Source: Flavobacteriales bacterium UBA6969 | GTDB taxonomy: Bacteria > Bacteroidota > Bacteroidia > Flavobacteriales_D > Sanyastnellaceae | Direction: 5' to 3' | DNA: 38,573 bases | NCBI GenBank assembly: GCA_002448555.1 | Contig: DJYV01000024.1 | Location: 2,496 to 41,068 of the forward strand | The notes under the pieces: generated by a model | What the model was told of the DNA's origin: nothing | What the model saw: the letters and a program-made list of their open reading frames with translations, nothing else | The model's database searches: none | Shown here: one piece after another, positions 261-26,535 of the stretch | How the letters are laid out: each line of letters begins with the position of its first letter | How positions within the stretch are numbered: the first letter of the stretch is position 1 | Made by a program: the position numbers and the translations under genes

Positions 261-305
261 TGCCTAACTGTTTTAGTTACTGTTTGATTTCACATTAAAT
301 GTTCG

Positions 306-377
<72 letters not shown>

Positions 378-394
378 TTAACCCTTTCGGGCGG

Positions 395-467
395 AGCGGA
401 AGACGAGATTCGAACTCGCGACATTCAGCTTGGAAGGCTGATGCTCTACCAACTGAGCTACTTCCGC
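395..467 (-). tRNA. tRNA-Gly (anticodon UCC)
   Basis: The reverse complement is GCGGAAGTAGCTCAGTTGGTAGAGCATCAGCCTTCCAAGCTGAATGTCGCGAGTTCGAATCTCGTCTTCCGCT. The acceptor stem is GCGGAAG/CTTCCGC, the anticodon loop is CTTCCAA, and the T-arm is GAGTTCGAATCTC. CCA is not encoded. Confidence 0.9.
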
Positions 468-496
468 TTTTCGACCTTTCGCGTTCGAACGGTCTG

Positions 497-582
497 TGGT
501 GGGGGTAATAGGATTCGAACCTATTCAGTCAGAGACAACAGATTTACAGTCTGCCCCGGCTCTCCAACTCCGGCGTACCCCC
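497..582 (-). tRNA. tRNA-Tyr (anticodon GUA), long variable arm, CCA encoded
   Basis: The reverse complement is GGGGGTACGCCGGAGTTGGAGAGCCGGGGCAGACTGTAAATCTGTTGTCTCTGACTGAATAGGTTCGAATCCTATTACCCCCACCA. The acceptor stem is GGGGGTA/TACCCCC, the anticodon loop is CTGTAAA, there is a long extra arm typical of bacterial tRNA-Tyr, and the 3' end is ACCA. Confidence 0.9.
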
Positions 583-630
583 GTTTGCCATTCACTGCCC
601 ATCACACAGTGGATAGACGGCGAACAAATG

Positions 631-704
631 AGCCGATGGAGGGATTCGAACCCCCGACCCGCTGATTACAAATCAGCTGCTCTGGCCAACTGAGCTACAT
701 CGGC
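631..704 (-). tRNA. tRNA-Thr (anticodon UGU)
   Basis: The reverse complement is GCCGATGTAGCTCAGTTGGCCAGAGCAGCTGATTTGTAATCAGCGGGTCGGGGGTTCGAATCCCTCCATCGGCT. The anticodon stem is GCTGA/TCAGC with loop TTTGTAA. CCA is not encoded. Confidence 0.9.
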
Positions 705-20989: not shown

Positions 20990-23407
20990 TCAAAGTTCGA
21001 CAATCAAGCCCAATGCCGGCAAGACGGCGCCCGTGCTTGGATCCAATTCGCGCGCATCGTAGTACCCGGGCTGGGTGACGGACGGCACGGGTTGGCCATT
21101 GAGCGGATTGCGCACCACGTCGATGAACGTGGGCTGCGGAACGGCCGCACCCGTGGCGTTTTGCACTTCAACGAAGACGTCAAGCGACCACCGCTCGAAA
21201 AACCACTTCTTGTCAATGCGGATGTCCAACTGGTGAAACGCACCGTTGCGTTCGGTGTTGAGCAGGCTGTAATCCAGCAATGGTCGCCCGTAAAAGTTCC
21301 ACGTTTCGACCGCAAGCGATTCCATGTCGACGGGCGTATAGGGCAGTCCTCCGCTGAAGAGCAAGCGCGAGCCAATTTCCCAACCGCCTTTGAATTTCTT
21401 GCCGCCCGTGACACTCAAGATATGCCGGTTGTCCCAGCTGGAAGGCACGTATTCTCCACCATCCACGGCATACTCGCTGCGCACAAACGTGTACGCCAGC
21501 AAGCCGTAAAACCCCTGGTAAAGTCGTTGCTGGAGGAGCACCTCTGCCCCGTAGGAGCGTCCGGTGCCATTGAAGGCCACGGCTTCATTTCCAACCACCC
21601 CAAAATCTGCCCCCAAGTTGGCGAGCGGTAAGCCTTGCCGCATGCTCACGGGCGCATTTTGATAGCCCTTCCAAAAGCCTTCAAGGGAAGCCACGATGTT
21701 GCGTTTGCCCCCCTCCCAGCGAATGCCAGCAACGGCCTGCGTGTTGCTCAAGTACCGAGCGTCGGCTCCTGCATTGATGCGCTCTCCGTCCTCTTCATAC
21801 CCGAGGATGGTGTAGGCGGGCAATTGGAAGTAGCGGCCAGTGTTGGCATTGAGCGTCCATCCGGGGGCGAATGCGTATGATGCCGAAAAACGCGGAGATA
21901 ATTGCTGAAGCGGGTTGCGCAGGCCCTCGCCCAAGGTGGATCCGTTGGCTCTAAAACCCGCTGATAACGTCAAACGCTCGTCCAAAACCTTGCGGTTGAC
22001 GGTGCCGAAGACTCCGTACTTGTGCGCCTTCAAATTCGAGGCAAACGCCACGGAATCCAACGTGCCTTCGGCGGGATTGTACCGCTGCTCGGAGGTGCTG
22101 TTATTGTACTTGACGTATTCATACCCCGCTCCCAACGTGGCCTCCCAGCCCTCATCTCCGAAGAGTTTGCGCTCCACGCGGAATTTGTTCTCAATTTCCT
22201 GCGAGAGGTAGTCACGGATCAGCGGAGCATCCTCGTCGTTATCGAGGTGCTTGAACGCACGGTTGTTCAGCATGTTCCGGCTGGCCACCAAGGTCCATTT
22301 GCCGTTGTCCCGGTAGTTGTCCCACCGGATACCCTGGGTGTAATTCCACTGCTTTTGGACATCCAAAGCGCCCAGGATGGCGACCTGATCAATATAATTG
22401 GTCGCCGAGGTATCGTCCGCTATGCCCAAGTTCAATTTGAAGTCATCGAGCGCACCAAGACCAATGACCGTGATGGCGTTTTTGTCGTCGGGGCGCGCAG
22501 TCCACTTGAATTGGTAGTCGTTGTAAATGGGCAAAAACGGGAGCCCCAATGCTTCAAAAACAAATTGTAGGTAGCTCCTGCGCATGCTTAAGATGAGCGA
22601 GGAATTCTCACCGGTCGGCCCCTCCAACGTCAGGCCGAGGTCGCTGGTTCCGACGACCATGTTCGCCGTCCATTCGTCCGTACGGGCCTCTTTGAAACTG
22701 AACTCCATCACCGAGCTGAGCGCGTTACCGCGGGCGGCTGGAAAGGCCCCTGCGTAGAAATCGATGTTCTCCACCAAATCGACGTTGATCATCCCCACCG
22801 GTCCGCCGCTCGCGCCTTGGGTTGCGAAGTGGTTGATGTTGGGGATCTCAATGCCGTCGATGTAAAAACGGTTCTCGTTCGGTGCGCCGCCACGGATGAC
22901 GATGTCGTTGCGGAAACTCGGAATGGCTGCCACACCCGGCAAGGTGCGCAGGGCACGGCTGATGTCACGTCCGCCGCCCGGGTTTCGTTTGATCTCATTG
23001 GTGCCAAGGCTGCGAACACTCAGCGGCGCTTCTGCGACATTGGGCCGGCGACTGCCAACCACTTCGGCCTCTTCTATCGCGATCGAGGCCGGCTTGAGGA
23101 CCACATTTACCACGGCCGGACGCGCCGGCGTCACCTCGATTTCGAACACTGTTTTGGGCTCGTAGCCCACGAAGCTGACTTGGATGTTTTGGATGCCTGC
23201 GGGCACATCCACCAGCTCGTAGTTACCATCAAAATCAGTCGTTATGCCCGCTGTCGACCCTTGCAAAATCACATTGGCAAAAGGGATGGCTTCGTTCGTC
23301 TGTTCATCGTTTACCCGGCCTCGGATAATGCCCAAGGATTGGGCCGCTGCAGAGGCGGTCAAACAGAACAAAGCAGTTCCGATGGCGGCGAGCAATTTCC
23401 AATTCAT
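20990..23407 (-). CDS. TonB-dependent outer-membrane receptor with an N-terminal carboxypeptidase-regulatory-like domain
   Basis: The signal peptide is MNWKLLAAIGTALFCLTASAAAQ and the CarbopepD_reg-like region is GRVNDEQTNEAIPFANVILQGS. Plug motifs are present (RALRTLPGVAA, IRGGAPNENRFYIDGIEI). A beta-barrel follows, ending in LGLIVEL. Confidence 0.85.
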   Translation of the reverse strand: MNWKLLAAIGTALFCLTASAAAQSLGIIRGRVNDEQTNEAIPFANVILQGSTAGITTDFDGNYELVDVPAGIQNIQVSFVGYEPKTVFEIEVTPARPAVVNVVLKPASIAIEEAEVVGSRRPNVAEAPLSVRSLGTNEIKRNPGGGRDISRALRTLPGVAAIPSFRNDIVIRGGAPNENRFYIDGIEIPNINHFATQGASGGPVGMINVDLVENIDFYAGAFPAARGNALSSVMEFSFKEARTDEWTANMVVGTSDLGLTLEGPTGENSSLILSMRRSYLQFVFEALGLPFLPIYNDYQFKWTARPDDKNAITVIGLGALDDFKLNLGIADDTSATNYIDQVAILGALDVQKQWNYTQGIRWDNYRDNGKWTLVASRNMLNNRAFKHLDNDEDAPLIRDYLSQEIENKFRVERKLFGDEGWEATLGAGYEYVKYNNSTSEQRYNPAEGTLDSVAFASNLKAHKYGVFGTVNRKVLDERLTLSAGFRANGSTLGEGLRNPLQQLSPRFSASYAFAPGWTLNANTGRYFQLPAYTILGYEEDGERINAGADARYLSNTQAVAGIRWEGGKRNIVASLEGFWKGYQNAPVSMRQGLPLANLGADFGVVGNEAVAFNGTGRSYGAEVLLQQRLYQGFYGLLAYTFVRSEYAVDGGEYVPSSWDNRHILSVTGGKKFKGGWEIGSRLLFSGGLPYTPVDMESLAVETWNFYGRPLLDYSLLNTERNGAFHQLDIRIDKKWFFERWSLDVFVEVQNATGAAVPQPTFIDVVRNPLNGQPVPSVTQPGYYDARELDPSTGAVLPALGLIVEL

Positions 23408-23516: not shown

Positions 23517-25292
23517 TCAAGCCAGCAAGTCGAGGTCCAATCGCTTGCGCAATTCCTCCAGCTTTGGGTTCTTCTTCACCATCTCATCGTACCGCTCGCG
23601 GTCGTTCATGAATTCCGTGGAAGCCGTCGCGGATTCGAGCTCAGCCATTTCAATAACCAACTTCAAGGTGTCGTTTTCAAGCTGGTCAGCGAAGTATTGA
23701 TTCAGACGCAACTGGACCTCCCGAATCTGCTCCGTTTGCAATCGATTGAGCACGGTCAAGGTGATGGTGGAGTCGTTAAAACCCATGGTGGTCGCCTTGA
23801 GCGTCGTGTGGAGGTTGAACTGCCCTTCCGCCTCGACGGTCACGATGAACGCTTCCCATGCCTTTTCCACGGCCTCTGCGGTGACCGGTTGTTCTCGCAC
23901 AGCAGCGGGCTCAGCCGCCTCTGCGGGCTTCGCCACATCCATCAAGGTTGAAGGGGCGGCAATGCCAAGCGACGGAACCGCTTGCACCGTTGGCGCTTTC
24001 GGTTTTTCGCGAACCGAGGCTGGAGCTGGCGCCGGCTGGTGCGGCTCTTCGGCTTTGGGTTGCTCTGCAGCGGGCGCAGGCTTGGGCTCAGGGTCTGGTA
24101 TCGGGGCGGGCGCAGGCGGCGCGGAAGTGGCAGCGGGGACAGGATTCGCCGGAGCTTTCGGTGATGGAGCGTCGGCAGACCATGCACCGGCTTCAATGGG
24201 CGTCAGTTCAGGCTTTTTTTTTTCGGCCTCCGTGAAAGAAGCGAGCTGCATTAAGGTCAATTCGACAAGCAGCCTTTGGTGGTTACTCCCCTTGTATTGC
24301 ACGTCGGCTTGGTTGACCGCATCCAATGCTCGCACCAAGAACCGCAAGTCCACACTCGCGGACTGGGTGCTGAATTGCGCCTTGACATCGTCTGTCACTT
24401 CCATCAAGGCTACCGTGCTCGAATCCTTGCTCATAAGCAGGTTACGCAAGTGCGCCCCGAGCCCCGAAATGAAGTGGTGCGGATCGAAGCCGCGCGAAAT
24501 GATGCCATCGAGGATGAGCAGCGCTTTGGCGACTTCCGCTTCTCGGACGGCGTCGACCACATCGAAGTAGGTTTCTTGGTCGAGGACGTGCAGGTGTTCT
24601 GCAACGGTCGCGTAGTCGAGTTTCTTGCCGGCGAAGGCGACCAGCTGATCGAAAATGCTCAACGCATCGCGGAGCGCGCCATCTGCCTTAACGGCCACTA
24701 CATGCAGCGCAGCTTCTTCGGCTTCTATCCCCTCCTTCGCGCAGATGCCCTTCAGATGTTCCACCATGTCCGGCACGGTGATGCGGTGGAAGTCGAAGAT
24801 TTGGCATCGCGACAAAATGGTCGGAAGAATCTTGTGCTTTTCGGTTGTGGCGAGGATGAAGACCGCATGTGGCGGTGGTTCTTCGAGCGTCTTCAAAAAC
24901 GCATTGAAGGCCGCCTGTGAAAGCATGTGCACCTCATCGATGATGTAGACTTTGTATTGTCCTTGTTGCGGGGGGATGCGCACCTGATCCACAATCGACC
25001 GGATATCCTCGACCTTGTTGTTGGAAGCGGCATCCAGCTCGAAGACGTTGAACGCGTAATCCTCCTGGTCGTTCGCTTCAAACCCATTGATGGCACGGGC
25101 GAAAATGCGAGCCGACGTGGTCTTGCCCACGCCCCGGGGACCGCAAAAGAGGTAGGCTTGAGCTATTTGCTCTTGGTCAATGGCCTGCTTGAGGGTGCGC
25201 GTGATGCTGTCTTGCCCGACGACCGCGTCCCAGTGTTGCGGGCGGTACTTCCGTGCGGACACGGTATATTGCGGTTGTTGAGCGGCTTCCAT
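23517..25292 (-). CDS. dnaX: DNA polymerase III subunits gamma/tau
   Basis: The N-terminus is ARKYRPQHWDAVVGQ and the Walker A motif is GPRGVGKTT. The DEAH-like motif IIDEVHML and the sensor motif TTEKHKILPTILSRCQ are present. A Pro/Ala-rich linker precedes a tau-specific C-terminal domain. The full product is 591 aa. Confidence 0.93.
   Translation of the reverse strand: MEAAQQPQYTVSARKYRPQHWDAVVGQDSITRTLKQAIDQEQIAQAYLFCGPRGVGKTTSARIFARAINGFEANDQEDYAFNVFELDAASNNKVEDIRSIVDQVRIPPQQGQYKVYIIDEVHMLSQAAFNAFLKTLEEPPPHAVFILATTEKHKILPTILSRCQIFDFHRITVPDMVEHLKGICAKEGIEAEEAALHVVAVKADGALRDALSIFDQLVAFAGKKLDYATVAEHLHVLDQETYFDVVDAVREAEVAKALLILDGIISRGFDPHHFISGLGAHLRNLLMSKDSSTVALMEVTDDVKAQFSTQSASVDLRFLVRALDAVNQADVQYKGSNHQRLLVELTLMQLASFTEAEKKKPELTPIEAGAWSADAPSPKAPANPVPAATSAPPAPAPIPDPEPKPAPAAEQPKAEEPHQPAPAPASVREKPKAPTVQAVPSLGIAAPSTLMDVAKPAEAAEPAAVREQPVTAEAVEKAWEAFIVTVEAEGQFNLHTTLKATTMGFNDSTITLTVLNRLQTEQIREVQLRLNQYFADQLENDTLKLVIEMAELESATASTEFMNDRERYDEMVKKNPKLEELRKRLDLDLLA
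24203..24233 (-). other. Candidate recoding site in dnaX (A10-G slippery run with flanking out-of-frame stops)
   Basis: The minus strand reads ACGGAGGCC GAA AAA AAA AAG CCT GAA CTG ACG. The heptamer A-AAA-AAG is in the same register as the E. coli dnaX shift site. The -1 frame reads GCC TGA and the +1 frame reads AGC CTG AAC TGA. A GGAGG lies 7 nt 5' of the heptamer. Confidence 0.55.
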
Positions 25293-25424: not shown

Positions 25425-25793
25425 ATGAACCGTTACGAAACTGTTTTCATCATGACTCCCGTGCTATCTGCCGAGCAGGTAGCGGAAACAGTAGAGAAGT
25501 ACAAGGCGTTTCTCAAAGAGCACAAAGGAACTATTGTGCACGAGGAAGCCTGGGGATTGCGGAAGCTGGCTTATCCCATCCAGAAAAAATCAACTGGTTT
25601 CTACCAGTTGCTGGAGTTTGAAGCCGATGCATCTGTTGTCCTGCCCTTCGAAACTGAATTCCGTCGGGACGAGCGCGTCATTCGCTTTTTGACTACGCGA
25701 ATGGACAAGTACCACGTTGCCTACGCTGAATCGCGTCGCAACAAATCCAAGGAGGCTCCTGCCCCCGCTCCCGAAACCACCGAAGAGGCTTAA
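25425..25793 (+). CDS. rpsF: 30S ribosomal protein S6
   Basis: The product begins [30 protein letters not shown]...[18 protein letters not shown] and ends in an acidic/Pro-Ala C-terminal tail. Confidence 0.93.
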
Positions 25794-25812
25794 TTCTTAA
25801 AACGACACTACC

Positions 25813-26076
25813 ATGGCTGACAAGAACGTACGTTACCTGAACCCCATCAGCATTGACACGCAAAAGGAGAAGTACTGTCGCTTCAAGAAGAAGGGCATCA
25901 AGTACATCGACTACAAAGACGCGGACTTCCTGCTGATGTTGTGCAACGAGCAAGGCAAGATTTTGCCCCGCCGATTGACTGGAACTTCATTGAAGTACCA
26001 GCGCAAGGCGTCTCAAGCAATTAAAAAAGCACGCCACCTGGCCTTGATGCCTTACGTGGCGGACAACCTCCGATAA
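25813..26076 (+). CDS. rpsR: 30S ribosomal protein S18
   Basis: The product contains [61 protein letters not shown]. Confidence 0.93.
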
Positions 26077-26088
26077 TCCTCAACGATC

Positions 26089-26535
26089 ATGGAAATTATT
26101 CTCAAGCAAGACGTCGATCGACTCGGCAGCAAGCACGATACCGTGACCGTGAAGAGCGGATACGCCCGCAACTTCCTCATCCCCCAGGGCATGGCGATAG
26201 CGGCGACACCATCCGCCAAGAAGGTGGTTGCAGAGGTGACCAAGCAGCAAGCGCACAAAGCCGCGAAAGCGATGGAAGAAGCGCAGGCATTGGTCACCAA
26301 GCTCGAAGGCTTGTCGCTTAAGATTGGAGCGAAGGCTGGTGAGAGCGGAAAGATTTTTGGTTCTGTCAACTCCATTCAAATCGCGGAAGCCATCCAGGCA
26401 GCCGGATACGACGTGGAGCGCAAGACGATCAACATCGCAGAAGACAGCATCAAGGAACTCGGCGAATACGAAGCAGTTGTAAAGCTGCACAAAGAAGTCA
26501 CGGCCACCGTGAAATTCGAAGTCGTCGCCGACTGA
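26089..26535 (+). CDS. rplI: 50S ribosomal protein L9
   Basis: The product begins MEIILKQDVDRLGSKHDTVTVKSGYARNFLIPQGMAI and has a C-terminal globular domain. It is 148 aa. Confidence 0.93.
   Translation: MEIILKQDVDRLGSKHDTVTVKSGYARNFLIPQGMAIAATPSAKKVVAEVTKQQAHKAAKAMEEAQALVTKLEGLSLKIGAKAGESGKIFGSVNSIQIAEAIQAAGYDVERKTINIAEDSIKELGEYEAVVKLHKEVTATVKFEVVAD

What the first reader, a model, noticed from the sequence alone, without database searches (positions are those of the whole stretch)
24203..24233. dnaX carries an A10-G slippery run in the E. coli register, with stops in both alternative frames at the gamma/tau boundary
The minus-strand codons 357-360 are GAA AAA AAA AAG (E-K-K-K). This contains A-AAA-AAG, the same heptamer in the same register as the E. 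coli dnaX -1 frameshift site.

- **-1 frame:** immediately downstream it reads GCC TGA, i.e. one extra residue then stop. That is the E. coli logic of Lys-Lys-Glu-stop.
- **+1 frame:** it reads AGC CTG AAC TGA.

Any slip, either ribosomal -1 or RNA-polymerase stuttering on the A10 tract as described for the Thermus thermophilus dnaX A9 tract, would therefore give a product of about 361-363 aa.

That product ends exactly after the clamp-loader core (domains I-III). It stops before the Pro/Ala-rich linker and the tau-specific C-terminus of the 591-aa full-length protein.

A GGAGG lies 7 nt 5' of the heptamer. I could not find a convincing downstream stem-loop, which favours the transcriptional-slippage model.

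Two closely spaced out-of-frame TGAs right after a 10-nt homopolymer, at this domain boundary, are hard to attribute to chance.
Basis: partly seen in the sequence, partly recalled or inferred. Interest (0 to 1): 0.72.

Follow-up and report, generated by a model that had tools for sequence, protein, structure and literature searches.

The report
Programmed slippage tract in dnaX
A run of ten A's in the DNA-replication gene dnaX of a marine Flavobacteriales bacterium is very probably a deliberate 'slippery' site that lets one gene make both a long (tau) and a short (gamma) clamp-loader protein; this trick is already known from Thermus and predicted for related bacteria, so it is a good new example, not a new kind of thing.

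Summary
dnaX (25292..23517, minus strand, 591 aa) has codons 357-360 GAA AAA AAA AAG. The A10 (24214..24223) is the only homopolymer longer than 7 in the window. A TGA lies in the -1 frame 6 nt after the run and in the +1 frame 11 nt after it. Pfam domain III ends at about residue 356.

The tract is not chance. In 68 of 80 named Bacteroidota genomes, and 47 of 80 metagenome relatives (36-63% identity), an A9-A13 run sits at the same domain boundary. It is usually exactly A10. It occurs in every codon phase and is followed by C, G or T. One frame stays open for tau and the other two close within 3-44 nt.

About 40% of run-bearing genes are 'split': gamma stops in frame and tau needs a slip. Slippage at A10 must therefore work in this phylum.

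RNA-polymerase slippage (Thermus type) fits best. There is no downstream stem-loop. The GGAGG is not conserved even in 91-97% relatives, and Bacteroidia ribosomes ignore SD sequences. Many relatives instead carry a hairpin directly upstream of the run.

Prior art exists (Larsen 2000; Antonov 2013). No transcript or protein data exist. Verdict: new member of a known kind, moderate interest.

The parts
23517..25292 (-). dnaX ORF. The full-length 591-aa product is tau, the zero-frame product of unslipped (A10) mRNA or of mRNA changed by three A's.
   Evidence: ORF list. NCBIfam PRK14971 and TIGR02397. Pfam DNA_pol3_delta2, DNAX_ATPase_lid and DNA_pol3_gamma3.
24214..24223 (-). A10 slippery tract (T10 on the + strand, which is the template strand for this gene). 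It falls in codons 357-360, GAA AAA AAA AAG.
   Evidence: It is the only homopolymer longer than 7 in the window. A tract in the equivalent position occurs in 68 of 80 GTDB Bacteroidota genomes, 61 of them exactly A10.
24208..24210 (-). TGA in the -1 frame. It is read after insertion of one A (or loss of two, or a -1 ribosomal shift). The product is 361 aa ending ...EKKKA.
   Evidence: In single-ORF relatives the -1 stop ends 3-29 nt after the run.
24203..24205 (-). TGA in the +1 frame. It is read after loss of one A or gain of two. The products are 362 or 363 aa ending ...KKSLN.
   Evidence: In single-ORF relatives the +1 stop ends 4-44 nt after the run.
24211..25292 (-). Region shared by tau and the predicted gamma: clamp-loader domains I-III plus the Lys residues encoded by the run.
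   Evidence: Pfam domains span residues 27-356.
23517..24213 (-). Tau-only region: a Pro/Ala-rich linker and the C-terminal domain (precomputed Pfam PF28557/DUF8439). Every slipped product lacks it.
   Evidence: Translation. Precomputed Pfam list for homologues. In split relatives this part is a separate ORF. The C-terminal 147 aa have no sequence match in the PDB.
24226..24242 (-). Weak candidate nascent-RNA hairpin GCUUCU-uucac-GGAGGC that ends 2 nt before the run.
   Evidence: -6.1 kcal/mol, rank 0.36 among same-gene controls, so not distinguishable from background here. Much stronger hairpins occupy this position in many relatives.

Best explanation
The A10 tract is a programmed slippage site that lets one gene make two clamp-loader subunits.

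Proposed mechanism:
- RNA polymerase transcribes the T10 template and forms an all-rA:dT hybrid about as long as the 9-10 bp transcription hybrid.
- The nascent RNA realigns, so a fraction of mRNAs carry A11, A12, A9 and so on.
- Ordinary translation of A10 mRNA, or of mRNA changed by three A's, gives full-length tau (591 aa).
- mRNAs with one or two extra or missing A's hit the TGA 6 nt or 11 nt after the run. They give a gamma-like protein of 360-363 aa that ends at clamp-loader domain III and lacks the tau-specific linker and C-terminal domain.

Shown here: the tract, the stops, the domain boundary, and deep nucleotide-level conservation of the arrangement.

Inferred: that slippage occurs, that it is mainly transcriptional, its efficiency, and that the short product is used as gamma.
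For: 1. Anatomy as described.

2. Conservation. An A-run of 9 or more lies at the end of domain III in 68 of 80 GTDB Bacteroidota genomes (61 exactly A10) and in 47 of 80 metagenome relatives at 36-63% identity. The genomes span Flavobacteriia, Sphingobacteriia, Cytophagia, Chitinophagia and some Bacteroidia.

3. Nucleotide-level, not protein-level:
- All three codon phases occur, and the following base is C, G or T.
- GC-rich genomes that prefer AAG still keep A10.
- Run-less relatives have no KKK at the boundary.
- 118 of the 146 A/T runs of 9 or more in 481 kb of loci are this tract.

4. Frame bookkeeping. Among the 160 scanned relatives, 75 are single-ORF genes (36 metagenome, 39 GTDB), and both alternative frames stop within 44 nt of the run (median of the farther stop 16 nt, computed with the window and two close relatives included, n=78). 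In 40 split genes the zero frame stops 3-19 nt after the run, one other frame carries tau, and the third frame is closed.

5. The split genes must slip to make tau: 29 of the 68 run-bearing GTDB genomes, including cultured Flavobacterium, Chryseobacterium and Myroides. A10 slippage is therefore operative in the phylum. Four split genes have tau in the +1 frame, which -1 ribosomal frameshifting cannot reach.

6. No 3' stimulator. The window's downstream fold has z=0.01 and -0.08. Across 116 loci the median downstream rank is 0.57.

7. An upstream hairpin abuts the run. 39% of run loci rank in the lowest 5% of same-gene controls, against 2.5% of run-less loci (Mann-Whitney p=2e-7), with 33 distinct sequences. 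A nascent hairpin 5'-adjacent to a slip motif is a known stimulator of RNA-polymerase slippage (Penno 2015, described in PMC5009743 section 43).

8. Precedent. Thermus thermophilus dnaX has an A9 followed by GCCTGA and stops in both frames, and transcriptional slippage there was shown experimentally (PMC1088944, PMC5009743). Bacterial RNA polymerase slips efficiently on 9 A's or T's.
Against: - There are no transcript, proteomic or reporter data for this organism or any Bacteroidota dnaX. Run-length variants found in public data (A8, A9) come from DNA assemblies, not RNA.
- Any A10 contains an in-register A_AAA_AAA or A_AAA_AAG heptamer in every phase. A translational contribution (-1 frameshift, or ribosome sliding on poly(A), PMC4363877) therefore cannot be excluded, and most split genes need exactly the -1 frame.
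- The window's own upstream hairpin is weak and not distinguishable from background.
- The hairpin statistics are not corrected for phylogeny or for coding constraint. About 20 of the 44 strong hairpins are one Flavobacteriaceae type.
- 12 of 80 genomes (mostly gut Bacteroidales) lack the tract, so gamma made this way is not universal.
Confidence: 0.72

Rival explanations
1. E. coli-type -1 programmed ribosomal frameshifting on the in-register A_AAA_AAG is the main source of the short product, which would terminate at GCC-TGA.
For: The heptamer is in register and the -1 stop follows one codon later. Most split relatives (36 of 40) carry tau in the -1 frame. A few Bacteroidota (L156, L052) do show a genuine E. 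coli-like cassette with only A6, an SD-like box and a strong covarying 3' stem, so the mechanism may exist in the phylum.
Against: - There is no 3' stem-loop in the window (z=0.01 and -0.08) or in run-bearing relatives generally.
- Rfam RF00382 scores 13.7 bits against a gathering score of 35.
- The GGAGG is 7 nt from the heptamer, is lost in 91-97% identical relatives, and Bacteroidia ribosomes do not use SD pairing (PMC7797042, PMC10798248).
- A heptamer does not explain a tract fixed at 10, a free 3' base, closure of the +1 frame, or the four genes with tau in the +1 frame.
Confidence: 0.1
2. Ribosomes slide on the poly(A) stretch during translation (Koutmou-type sliding on iterated AAA codons) and enter either alternative frame, where the nearby stops end synthesis.
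For: Sliding on homopolymeric A has been shown with E. coli ribosomes (PMC4363877). It would explain why both alternative frames are closed and why AAA rather than AAG is kept.
Against: The upstream-adjacent hairpin enrichment has no known role in sliding. The tract length is fixed close to the RNA:DNA hybrid length. In the one dnaX homologue with this layout that was tested, Thermus, the mechanism was transcriptional. Split genes would need efficient, directional sliding to make the essential tau.
Confidence: 0.07
3. The tract is a DNA-level contingency (phase-variable) site or a sequencing or assembly homopolymer error, with no programmed role for the RNA or protein.
For: Public assemblies of this same lineage contain A8 (a pilon-polished long-read contig, L165) and A9 (a Tara Illumina scaffold, L163) versions. 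These encode exactly the predicted truncated proteins.
Against: A10 is found in independent assemblies and EKKK is encoded in almost all of the 120 close clusters. The tract is conserved across classes, including cultured isolates. dnaX is an essential replication gene, which makes on/off switching implausible. Long-read homopolymer error explains the A8.
Confidence: 0.04
4. The tract is a chance or protein-driven poly-lysine patch in the linker with no recoding function.
For: EKKK is a plausible linker sequence. Given EKKK and this genome's codon usage, the probability of the all-A spelling is 0.07.
Against: Run-less relatives have no KKK at the boundary. The encoded residues differ with phase. 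The flanking stops are closer than at 99.4% of positions in the gene. Split-gene relatives cannot make tau without slippage.
Confidence: 0.02

Closest known systems
Thermus thermophilus dnaX programmed transcriptional slippage (Larsen et al. 2000 PNAS; summarised in PMC1088944 and PMC5009743)
   Same: Tau is encoded in a single ORF. A homopolymeric A tract in the sense strand lies after the clamp-loader core, with stops close by in both non-zero frames. Even the 3' context is identical (A-run followed by GCCTGA; PMC3711429 Fig. S3). No 3' stem-loop is required.
   Different: The tract is A10 here, not A9. The phylum is different (Bacteroidota, not Deinococcota). Slippage here is inferred and has not been demonstrated. 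Many relatives carry an upstream hairpin; the sources read here describe no such feature for Thermus dnaX.
'Two-ORF' dnaX of Flavobacterium, Cytophaga, Capnocytophaga, Chlorobi and Coraliomargarita (Antonov et al. 2013, PMC3711429)
   Same: The same phylum and the same A10(-G) tract at the same boundary. Those authors predicted the same transcriptional realignment mechanism. The same type is seen here in 29 of 80 GTDB genomes.
   Different: In those genes gamma is the zero-frame product and tau needs the slip. In the window tau is the zero-frame product and gamma needs the slip. The disrupted-ORF search used in that study cannot detect the window's layout (stated in PMC4066793).
E. coli dnaX -1 ribosomal frameshift cassette (Rfam RF00382)
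   Same: An A_AAA_AAG heptamer in register, a -1 stop one codon later, a purine-rich box upstream, and the same biological outcome of gamma and tau from one gene.
   Different: There is no 3' stem-loop, and the Rfam score is far below threshold. The SD-like box is at the wrong spacing, is not conserved, and the ribosomes are SD-blind. The tract is longer than a heptamer, and the +1 frame is also closed.
Hairpin-stimulated RNA-polymerase slippage in Roseiflexus IS630 (Penno et al. 2015, via PMC5009743)
   Same: In many relatives a nascent-RNA stem-loop ends 0-3 nt 5' of the slip motif. This is a terminator-like geometry.
   Different: The slip motif there is T5C5 and slippage depends strictly on the hairpin. 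Here the motif is a long A-run that should slip on its own, and the window's own hairpin is marginal.

Membership tests
Thermus-type dnaX transcriptional slippage site | Homopolymeric A run of 9 or more in the sense strand inside dnaX | tested here: met
   A10 at 24214..24223.
Thermus-type dnaX transcriptional slippage site | Tau is encoded by one uninterrupted ORF through the run | tested here: met
   591-aa ORF at 25292..23517. The zero-frame stop lies 697 nt after the run.
Thermus-type dnaX transcriptional slippage site | Stop codons close by in both non-zero frames, so every non-triplet slip gives a truncated product | tested here: met
   TGA 6 nt after the run (-1 frame) and 11 nt after it (+1 frame). 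Only 3 of 537 positions in the gene do as well.
Thermus-type dnaX transcriptional slippage site | The site lies after clamp-loader domains I-III and before the tau-specific part | tested here: met
   Pfam domain III ends at about residue 356 and the run starts in codon 357.
Thermus-type dnaX transcriptional slippage site | The mRNA population is heterogeneous in A number, and both gamma and tau proteins are produced | not testable with these tools
   No transcript or protein data are available. The exact-sequence look-up found truncated forms only in DNA assemblies.
Thermus-type dnaX transcriptional slippage site | The tract and the frame closure are conserved in relatives beyond codon-level expectation | tested here: met
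   68 of 80 GTDB genomes and 47 of 80 metagenome loci carry it, in all codon phases, including GC-rich genomes.
E. coli-type dnaX -1 PRF cassette (RF00382) | A_AAA_AAG heptamer in the zero-frame register with a nearby -1 stop | tested here: met
   GAA AAA AAA AAG followed by GCC TGA in the -1 frame.
E. coli-type dnaX -1 PRF cassette (RF00382) | Stimulatory stem-loop a few nucleotides 3' of the heptamer | tested here: not met
   Downstream folds have z=0.01 and -0.08, and the rank among same-gene controls is 0.86. Contrast L156 and L052 at -14.9 and -17.5 kcal/mol.
E. coli-type dnaX -1 PRF cassette (RF00382) | Functional internal Shine-Dalgarno about 10 nt 5' of the heptamer | tested here: not met
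   GGAGG lies at 7 nt. It is replaced by TGAGG or TAAGG in close relatives. Bacteroidia ribosomes sequester the anti-SD (PMC7797042, PMC10798248).
E. coli-type dnaX -1 PRF cassette (RF00382) | Match to the Rfam covariance model at the gathering score | tested here: not met
   13.7 bits against 35, E=1.1. There was no hit at gathering threshold.
E. coli-type dnaX -1 PRF cassette (RF00382) | A single tRNA-Lys(UUU) decodes both AAA and AAG, which is the basis of the high shiftiness of AAG | not tested
   The window holds only Thr, Gly, Tyr and Thr tRNAs. The genome's tRNA set is not available.
Split ('two-ORF') dnaX of Antonov et al. 2013 | Zero-frame stop directly after the poly-A, with tau continuing in another frame | tested here: not met
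   The window's zero frame stays open for 697 nt. The feature is met in 29 of 80 GTDB relatives and in the A9 variant L163 of this lineage.
Hairpin-stimulated RNA-polymerase slippage (Penno 2015) | Stable nascent-RNA stem-loop immediately 5' of the slip motif | tested here: inconclusive
   The window has a 6-bp stem with two G-U pairs, -6.1 kcal/mol, ending 2 nt from the run, rank 0.36. It is clearly present in 39% of run-bearing relatives.

The most novel reading that the evidence does not exclude
Bacteroidota dnaX may carry a conserved, terminator-like 'hairpin + A10' cassette that sets the gamma:tau ratio by RNA-polymerase slippage. Which subunit is the default product would then flip by single-nucleotide indels, repeatedly across the phylum and possibly as a standing polymorphism within this marine lineage (A10 single-ORF and A9 split versions both occur in public metagenome assemblies). 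A minority of lineages (L156, L052) would have replaced the cassette with an E. coli-like ribosomal frameshift cassette despite SD-blind ribosomes.
Probability: 0.3. Interest if true: 0.55.

Novelty: new member of a known kind. Interest (0 to 1): 0.36.

Why it matters
Annotation: automatic pipelines will call only the 591-aa protein here. In split relatives they will call a 'truncated' dnaX plus an orphan DUF8439 ORF, or a pseudogene.

Recognising the tract gives three things:
- The replisome composition (tau and gamma) can be predicted for a large, mostly uncultured phylum.
- It warns that homopolymer 'errors' at this site in MAGs may be biologically meaningful.
- It offers a natural series for studying how transcriptional and translational recoding interchange at one site: A10 single-ORF, A10 split, and A6 plus stem-loop.

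The single-ORF form cannot be found by disrupted-ORF screens (PMC4066793). Its prevalence in Bacteroidota (39 of 68 run-bearing genomes sampled here) is therefore probably under-appreciated.

Tried and rejected
1. Exact-sequence look-up of the predicted slipped products, hoping for transcript-derived assemblies. The hits were DNA assemblies: a Tara METAG scaffold with A9 and a pilon-polished long-read contig with A8. This gives no evidence on transcription.

2. Downstream stimulatory structure. Single-sequence folds and a 116-locus rank test found nothing. The first version of that script timed out.

3. Rfam at gathering and at permissive thresholds. Only a sub-threshold RF00382 match appeared, driven by the A-run.

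4. PDB sequence search with the C-terminal 147 aa, to tie it to a solved tau domain. There was no meaningful hit.

5. The exhaustive representative search. It confirmed the family and showed the lineage is isolated (nearest 50%-cluster representative 56% identical), but added nothing on the tract because it returns no DNA.

6. The poly-lysine-patch and chance explanations were rejected.

7. Literature searches for Bacteroidota-specific dnaX recoding experiments. Nothing was found beyond Antonov 2013. The original Larsen 2000 paper is not held and is cited through reviews.
Full report
**1. The observation**

On the minus strand the window reads ...ACG GAG GCC GAA AAA AAA AAG CCT GAA CTG ACG.... 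The surrounding ORF (25292..23517, 591 aa) is dnaX:
- NCBIfam PRK14971 at E=2e-192, and TIGR02397 at 390 bits against a cutoff of 250.
- Pfam DNA_pol3_delta2, DNAX_ATPase_lid and domain III, with domain III matching residues 228-356.

The A10 occupies window 24214..24223 and starts at position 2 of codon 357. The -1 frame reads GCC TGA (TGA at 24210..24208). The +1 frame reads AGC CTG AAC TGA (TGA at 24205..24203).

Editing the run in silico gives these products:

| Run | Length | C-terminus |
|---|---|---|
| A8 | 360 aa | ...EKKA |
| A9 | 362 aa | ...EKKSLN |
| A11 | 361 aa | ...EKKKA |
| A12 | 363 aa | ...EKKKSLN |
| A13 | 592 aa | one extra Lys |

**2. Is it more than chance?**

- The window is 56% GC. 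All other homopolymers are 7 nt or shorter, and about 0.016 A/T runs of 10 or more are expected.
- Only 3 of 537 codon positions in this gene have stops in both alternative frames as close as here.
- AAG is the preferred Lys codon: 63.5% over 18 long ORFs, and 23 AAG to 7 AAA in dnaX outside the run.
- The tract is not an artefact of this assembly. Two independent assemblies of 91-92% identical relatives have the identical A10-GCCTGAACTGA. EKKK is encoded in almost all of the 120 closest protein clusters.

**3. Comparative evidence**

Source names for the closest proteins place the organism in uncultured marine Flavobacteriales; one cluster member is named Crocinitomicaceae by NCBI. I scanned two collections with the protein and, for each hit, located the end of domain III and tabulated A-runs and the stops in all three frames.

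Metagenome contigs (80 loci, 36-63% identity):
- 47 loci have an A-run of 9 or more at the boundary: A9 in 4, A10 in 33, A11 in 9, A12 in 1.

GTDB species genomes (80 loci):
- 68 genomes have the run, and 61 of them have exactly A10.
- Run-bearing genera include Maribacter, Kordia, Mariniflexile, Aquimarina, Flavobacterium, Chryseobacterium and Myroides.
- They also include Pedobacter, Mucilaginibacter, Dyadobacter, Hymenobacter, Taibaiella, Saprospiraceae, Paludibacter and Sunxiuqinia.
- That is five NCBI classes of Bacteroidota.
- The 12 genomes without a run are mostly gut Bacteroidaceae and other Bacteroidales.

The conservation is at the nucleotide level, not the protein level:
- The first A falls in codon position 1, 2 or 3 in different lineages.
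- The base after the run is C, G or T, and the flanking sequence is unrelated between orders.
- GC-rich genomes keep A10, for example Hymenobacter at 64% and L102 at 59%.
- Relatives without the run have no KKK at the boundary.
- Of 146 A/T runs of 9 or more in 481 kb of fetched loci, 118 are this tract.

**4. Frame bookkeeping**

Run-bearing genes come in two layouts.

- Single ORF, as in the window: 39 GTDB and 36 metagenome loci. The zero frame continues for 470-880 nt to the tau stop. Both other frames stop within 3-44 nt of the run (median of the farther stop 16 nt).
- Split: 29 GTDB and 11 metagenome loci. The zero frame stops 3-19 nt after the run. Tau continues in the -1 frame in 36 genes (one extra A needed) or in the +1 frame in 4 genes. 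The third frame is closed.

In every case exactly one frame is open. The split layout is the 'novel dnaX organisation' of Antonov et al. 2013. Their Supplementary Fig. S3 lists A10-G tracts for Flavobacterium johnsoniae, F. psychrophilum, Cytophaga hutchinsonii and several Chlorobi, aligned to Thermus A9-GCCTGA.

By established knowledge of the replisome, tau carries the polymerase-binding and helicase-binding regions. Split genomes must therefore slip at A10 to make it. This is the strongest available evidence that the tract is operative in this phylum. It follows by inference that the same tract in the single-ORF layout diverts a comparable share of expression to a truncated, gamma-like product.

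Layouts switch between close genera, for example Mariniflexile (single) and Flavobacterium (split), while the tract stays at 10. This fits the remark in PMC5009743 that one nucleotide can reverse the roles when efficiency is near 50%.

**5. Which mechanism?**

The *E. coli*-type cassette has three parts: the heptamer, an SD about 10 nt upstream, and a 3' stem-loop (PMC3711429 Fig. 1; PMC5009743). The window meets only the first.

- No downstream structure exceeds shuffles: z=0.01 over 106 nt and z=-0.08 over 48 nt. The rank among same-gene controls is 0.86.
- Across 116 run-bearing loci the downstream segment is unremarkable: median rank 0.57, with 4.3% in the lowest 5%.
- Rfam RF00382 scores 13.7 bits against a gathering score of 35.
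- The GGAGG is TGAGG or TAAGG in relatives 91-97% identical.
- Bacteroidia ribosomes sequester the anti-SD and do not respond to SD sequences (PMC7797042; PMC10798248).
- A heptamer does not explain a tract fixed at 10, the free 3' base, closure of the +1 frame, or tau lying in the +1 frame in four genes.

An upstream hairpin is enriched instead.

- The 32 nt before the run fold better than 95% of same-gene control segments in 39% of run-bearing loci. The figure is 2.5% for run-less loci at the equivalent position (Mann-Whitney p=2e-7).
- The stem ends 0-3 nt from the first A.
- 33 distinct sequences are involved, from Flavobacteriaceae (CTCYATCA-nnnn-TGATGGAG), Pedobacter, Hymenobacter, Paludibacter, Schleiferiaceae and others.
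- A nascent-RNA stem-loop directly 5' of a slip motif is a known stimulator of RNA-polymerase slippage. The transcription hybrid is 9-10 bp (Penno et al. 2015 as described in PMC5009743 section 43).
- A hairpin followed by an A10 therefore has terminator-like geometry.

Taken together with the experimentally shown slippage on A9 in Thermus dnaX (PMC1088944, PMC5009743), the best-supported mechanism is transcriptional slippage.

Caveats:
- The window's own hairpin (GCUUCU-uucac-GGAGGC, 24242..24226, -6.1 kcal/mol) is indistinguishable from background.
- The enrichment test is not corrected for phylogeny or coding constraint.
- Every A10 contains an in-register A_AAA_AAA or A_AAA_AAG heptamer, so -1 frameshifting or poly(A) sliding (PMC4363877) may contribute.

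**6. A failed attempt at direct evidence**

I looked up the exact predicted slipped proteins among about 15 billion sequences. The A8 product exists. Its 90% cluster also contains several 360-, 361- and 362-aa proteins ending ...EKKA...EKKSLN and similar.

Their contigs are DNA assemblies. One is a pilon-polished 2.3-Mb long-read contig with A8 (L165). Another is a Tara 'METAG' Illumina scaffold with A9 (L163), in which gene callers predict a 362-aa gamma ORF followed by a 207-aa DUF8439 ORF.

These are either homopolymer errors or real population indels that convert this lineage to the split layout. They say nothing about transcripts.

**7. Comparison with what is known, and novelty**

- The window's gene works like Thermus thermophilus dnaX and meets every sequence-level criterion of that type. 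The expression criterion cannot be tested here.
- It is not an *E. coli*-type cassette: three defining features were tested and not met.
- It is not the Antonov split type, although it is evidently the same tract in the alternative layout.
- The literature held here contains no experimental work on Bacteroidota dnaX recoding.
- Disrupted-ORF screens cannot see the single-ORF layout (PMC4066793). Its prevalence in the phylum (39 of the 68 run-bearing genomes sampled) may therefore be undocumented.
- The kind of system is nevertheless known, so I rate the finding a new member of a known kind, with an interest score of about 0.36.

**8. Confidence**

| Explanation | Confidence |
|---|---|
| Programmed production of two products, mainly by transcriptional slippage | 0.72 |
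| Mainly -1 ribosomal frameshifting | 0.10 |
| Poly(A) sliding by ribosomes | 0.07 |
| DNA-level variation or artefact | 0.04 |
| Chance or a lysine patch | 0.02 |

The remainder is unassigned.

Noticed in passing
Relatives, e.g. L086:2235-2264, L127:2323-2359, L133:2266-2298; window 24226-24242 (weak): A stable hairpin ends 0-3 nt upstream of the dnaX A-run in 39% of run-bearing Bacteroidota genes, against 2.5% of run-less genes at the same boundary. 33 distinct sequences are involved. The geometry is terminator-like (stem followed by a 10-nt homopolymer) and suggests a stimulator of RNA-polymerase slippage. I found no description of this for dnaX in the papers searched.
   Followed up: partly
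L156:2307-2357 (Bacteroidota MAG) and L052:1419-1469 (metagenome): These dnaX genes have only A6. They show an E. coli-like cassette: GGAGGG, 10 nt, A_AAA_AAG in register, a -1 stop one codon later, and a strong 3' stem starting 5-6 nt downstream (-14.9 and -17.5 kcal/mol; z -1.7 and -4.2). The stem arms differ between the two loci (GCCCCA/TGGGGC against GTCCCC/GGGGAC). There is no nearby +1 stop. This may be a ribosomal-frameshift variant inside an SD-blind phylum. Rfam RF00382 does not detect it.
   Followed up: partly
L163:1929-1937 (Tara METAG scaffold, A9); L165:2570-2577 (pilon-polished 2.3-Mb contig, A8); proteins P0121-P0135: Public DNA assemblies of the window's own lineage carry run lengths other than 10 and so encode exactly the predicted 360- to 362-aa truncated proteins. 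The A9 version is effectively the split layout. This could be homopolymer error or a real polymorphism. The data here cannot tell which.
   Followed up: partly
L072:1345-1356: This dnaX has no long A-run. It reads GAG GGA AAA TAA, with tau continuing in the -1 frame. That is a G_GGA_AAA heptamer directly before a zero-frame stop. It could be a different (ribosomal) way to make tau, or a decayed tract. A truncated RNase P RNA gene lies at L072:1-190 on the minus strand (98.7 bits).
   Followed up: no
L140:2281-2298 (uncultured Bacteroidales RUG539): An in-frame TAG sits at the domain III boundary (…VVNNP*IARSPQ…), and the tau-like Pro/Ala-rich sequence continues in the same frame. This could be stop-codon readthrough, a sequencing error or a pseudogene. 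It remains unexplained.
   Followed up: no
L135:1262-1280 (Pontibacter rugosus): This gene has only A7 at the boundary, preceded by a purine-rich GGAAGGAGAAGGA, yet stops lie in both alternative frames 5 and 10 nt downstream. It may be a shortened version of the tract, close to or below the length at which polymerase slippage is expected.
   Followed up: no
window 305-704 (minus strand): There is a cluster of four tRNA genes. In transcription order they are Thr(TGT), Tyr(GTA), Gly(TCC) and Thr(GGT). From memory, this is the same order as the E. coli thrU-tyrU-glyT-thrT cluster that precedes tufB. Any tuf gene would lie at or beyond the window's left end.
   Followed up: no
window 20990-23407 (-) and 25425-26535 (+): The neighbourhood of dnaX is conserved in close relatives. 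rpsF-rpsR-rplI lie divergently upstream, and an 805-aa TonB-dependent receptor (CarboxypepD_reg, Plug and beta-barrel domains) lies downstream. The arrangement is the same in L001, L002 and L165.
   Followed up: partly
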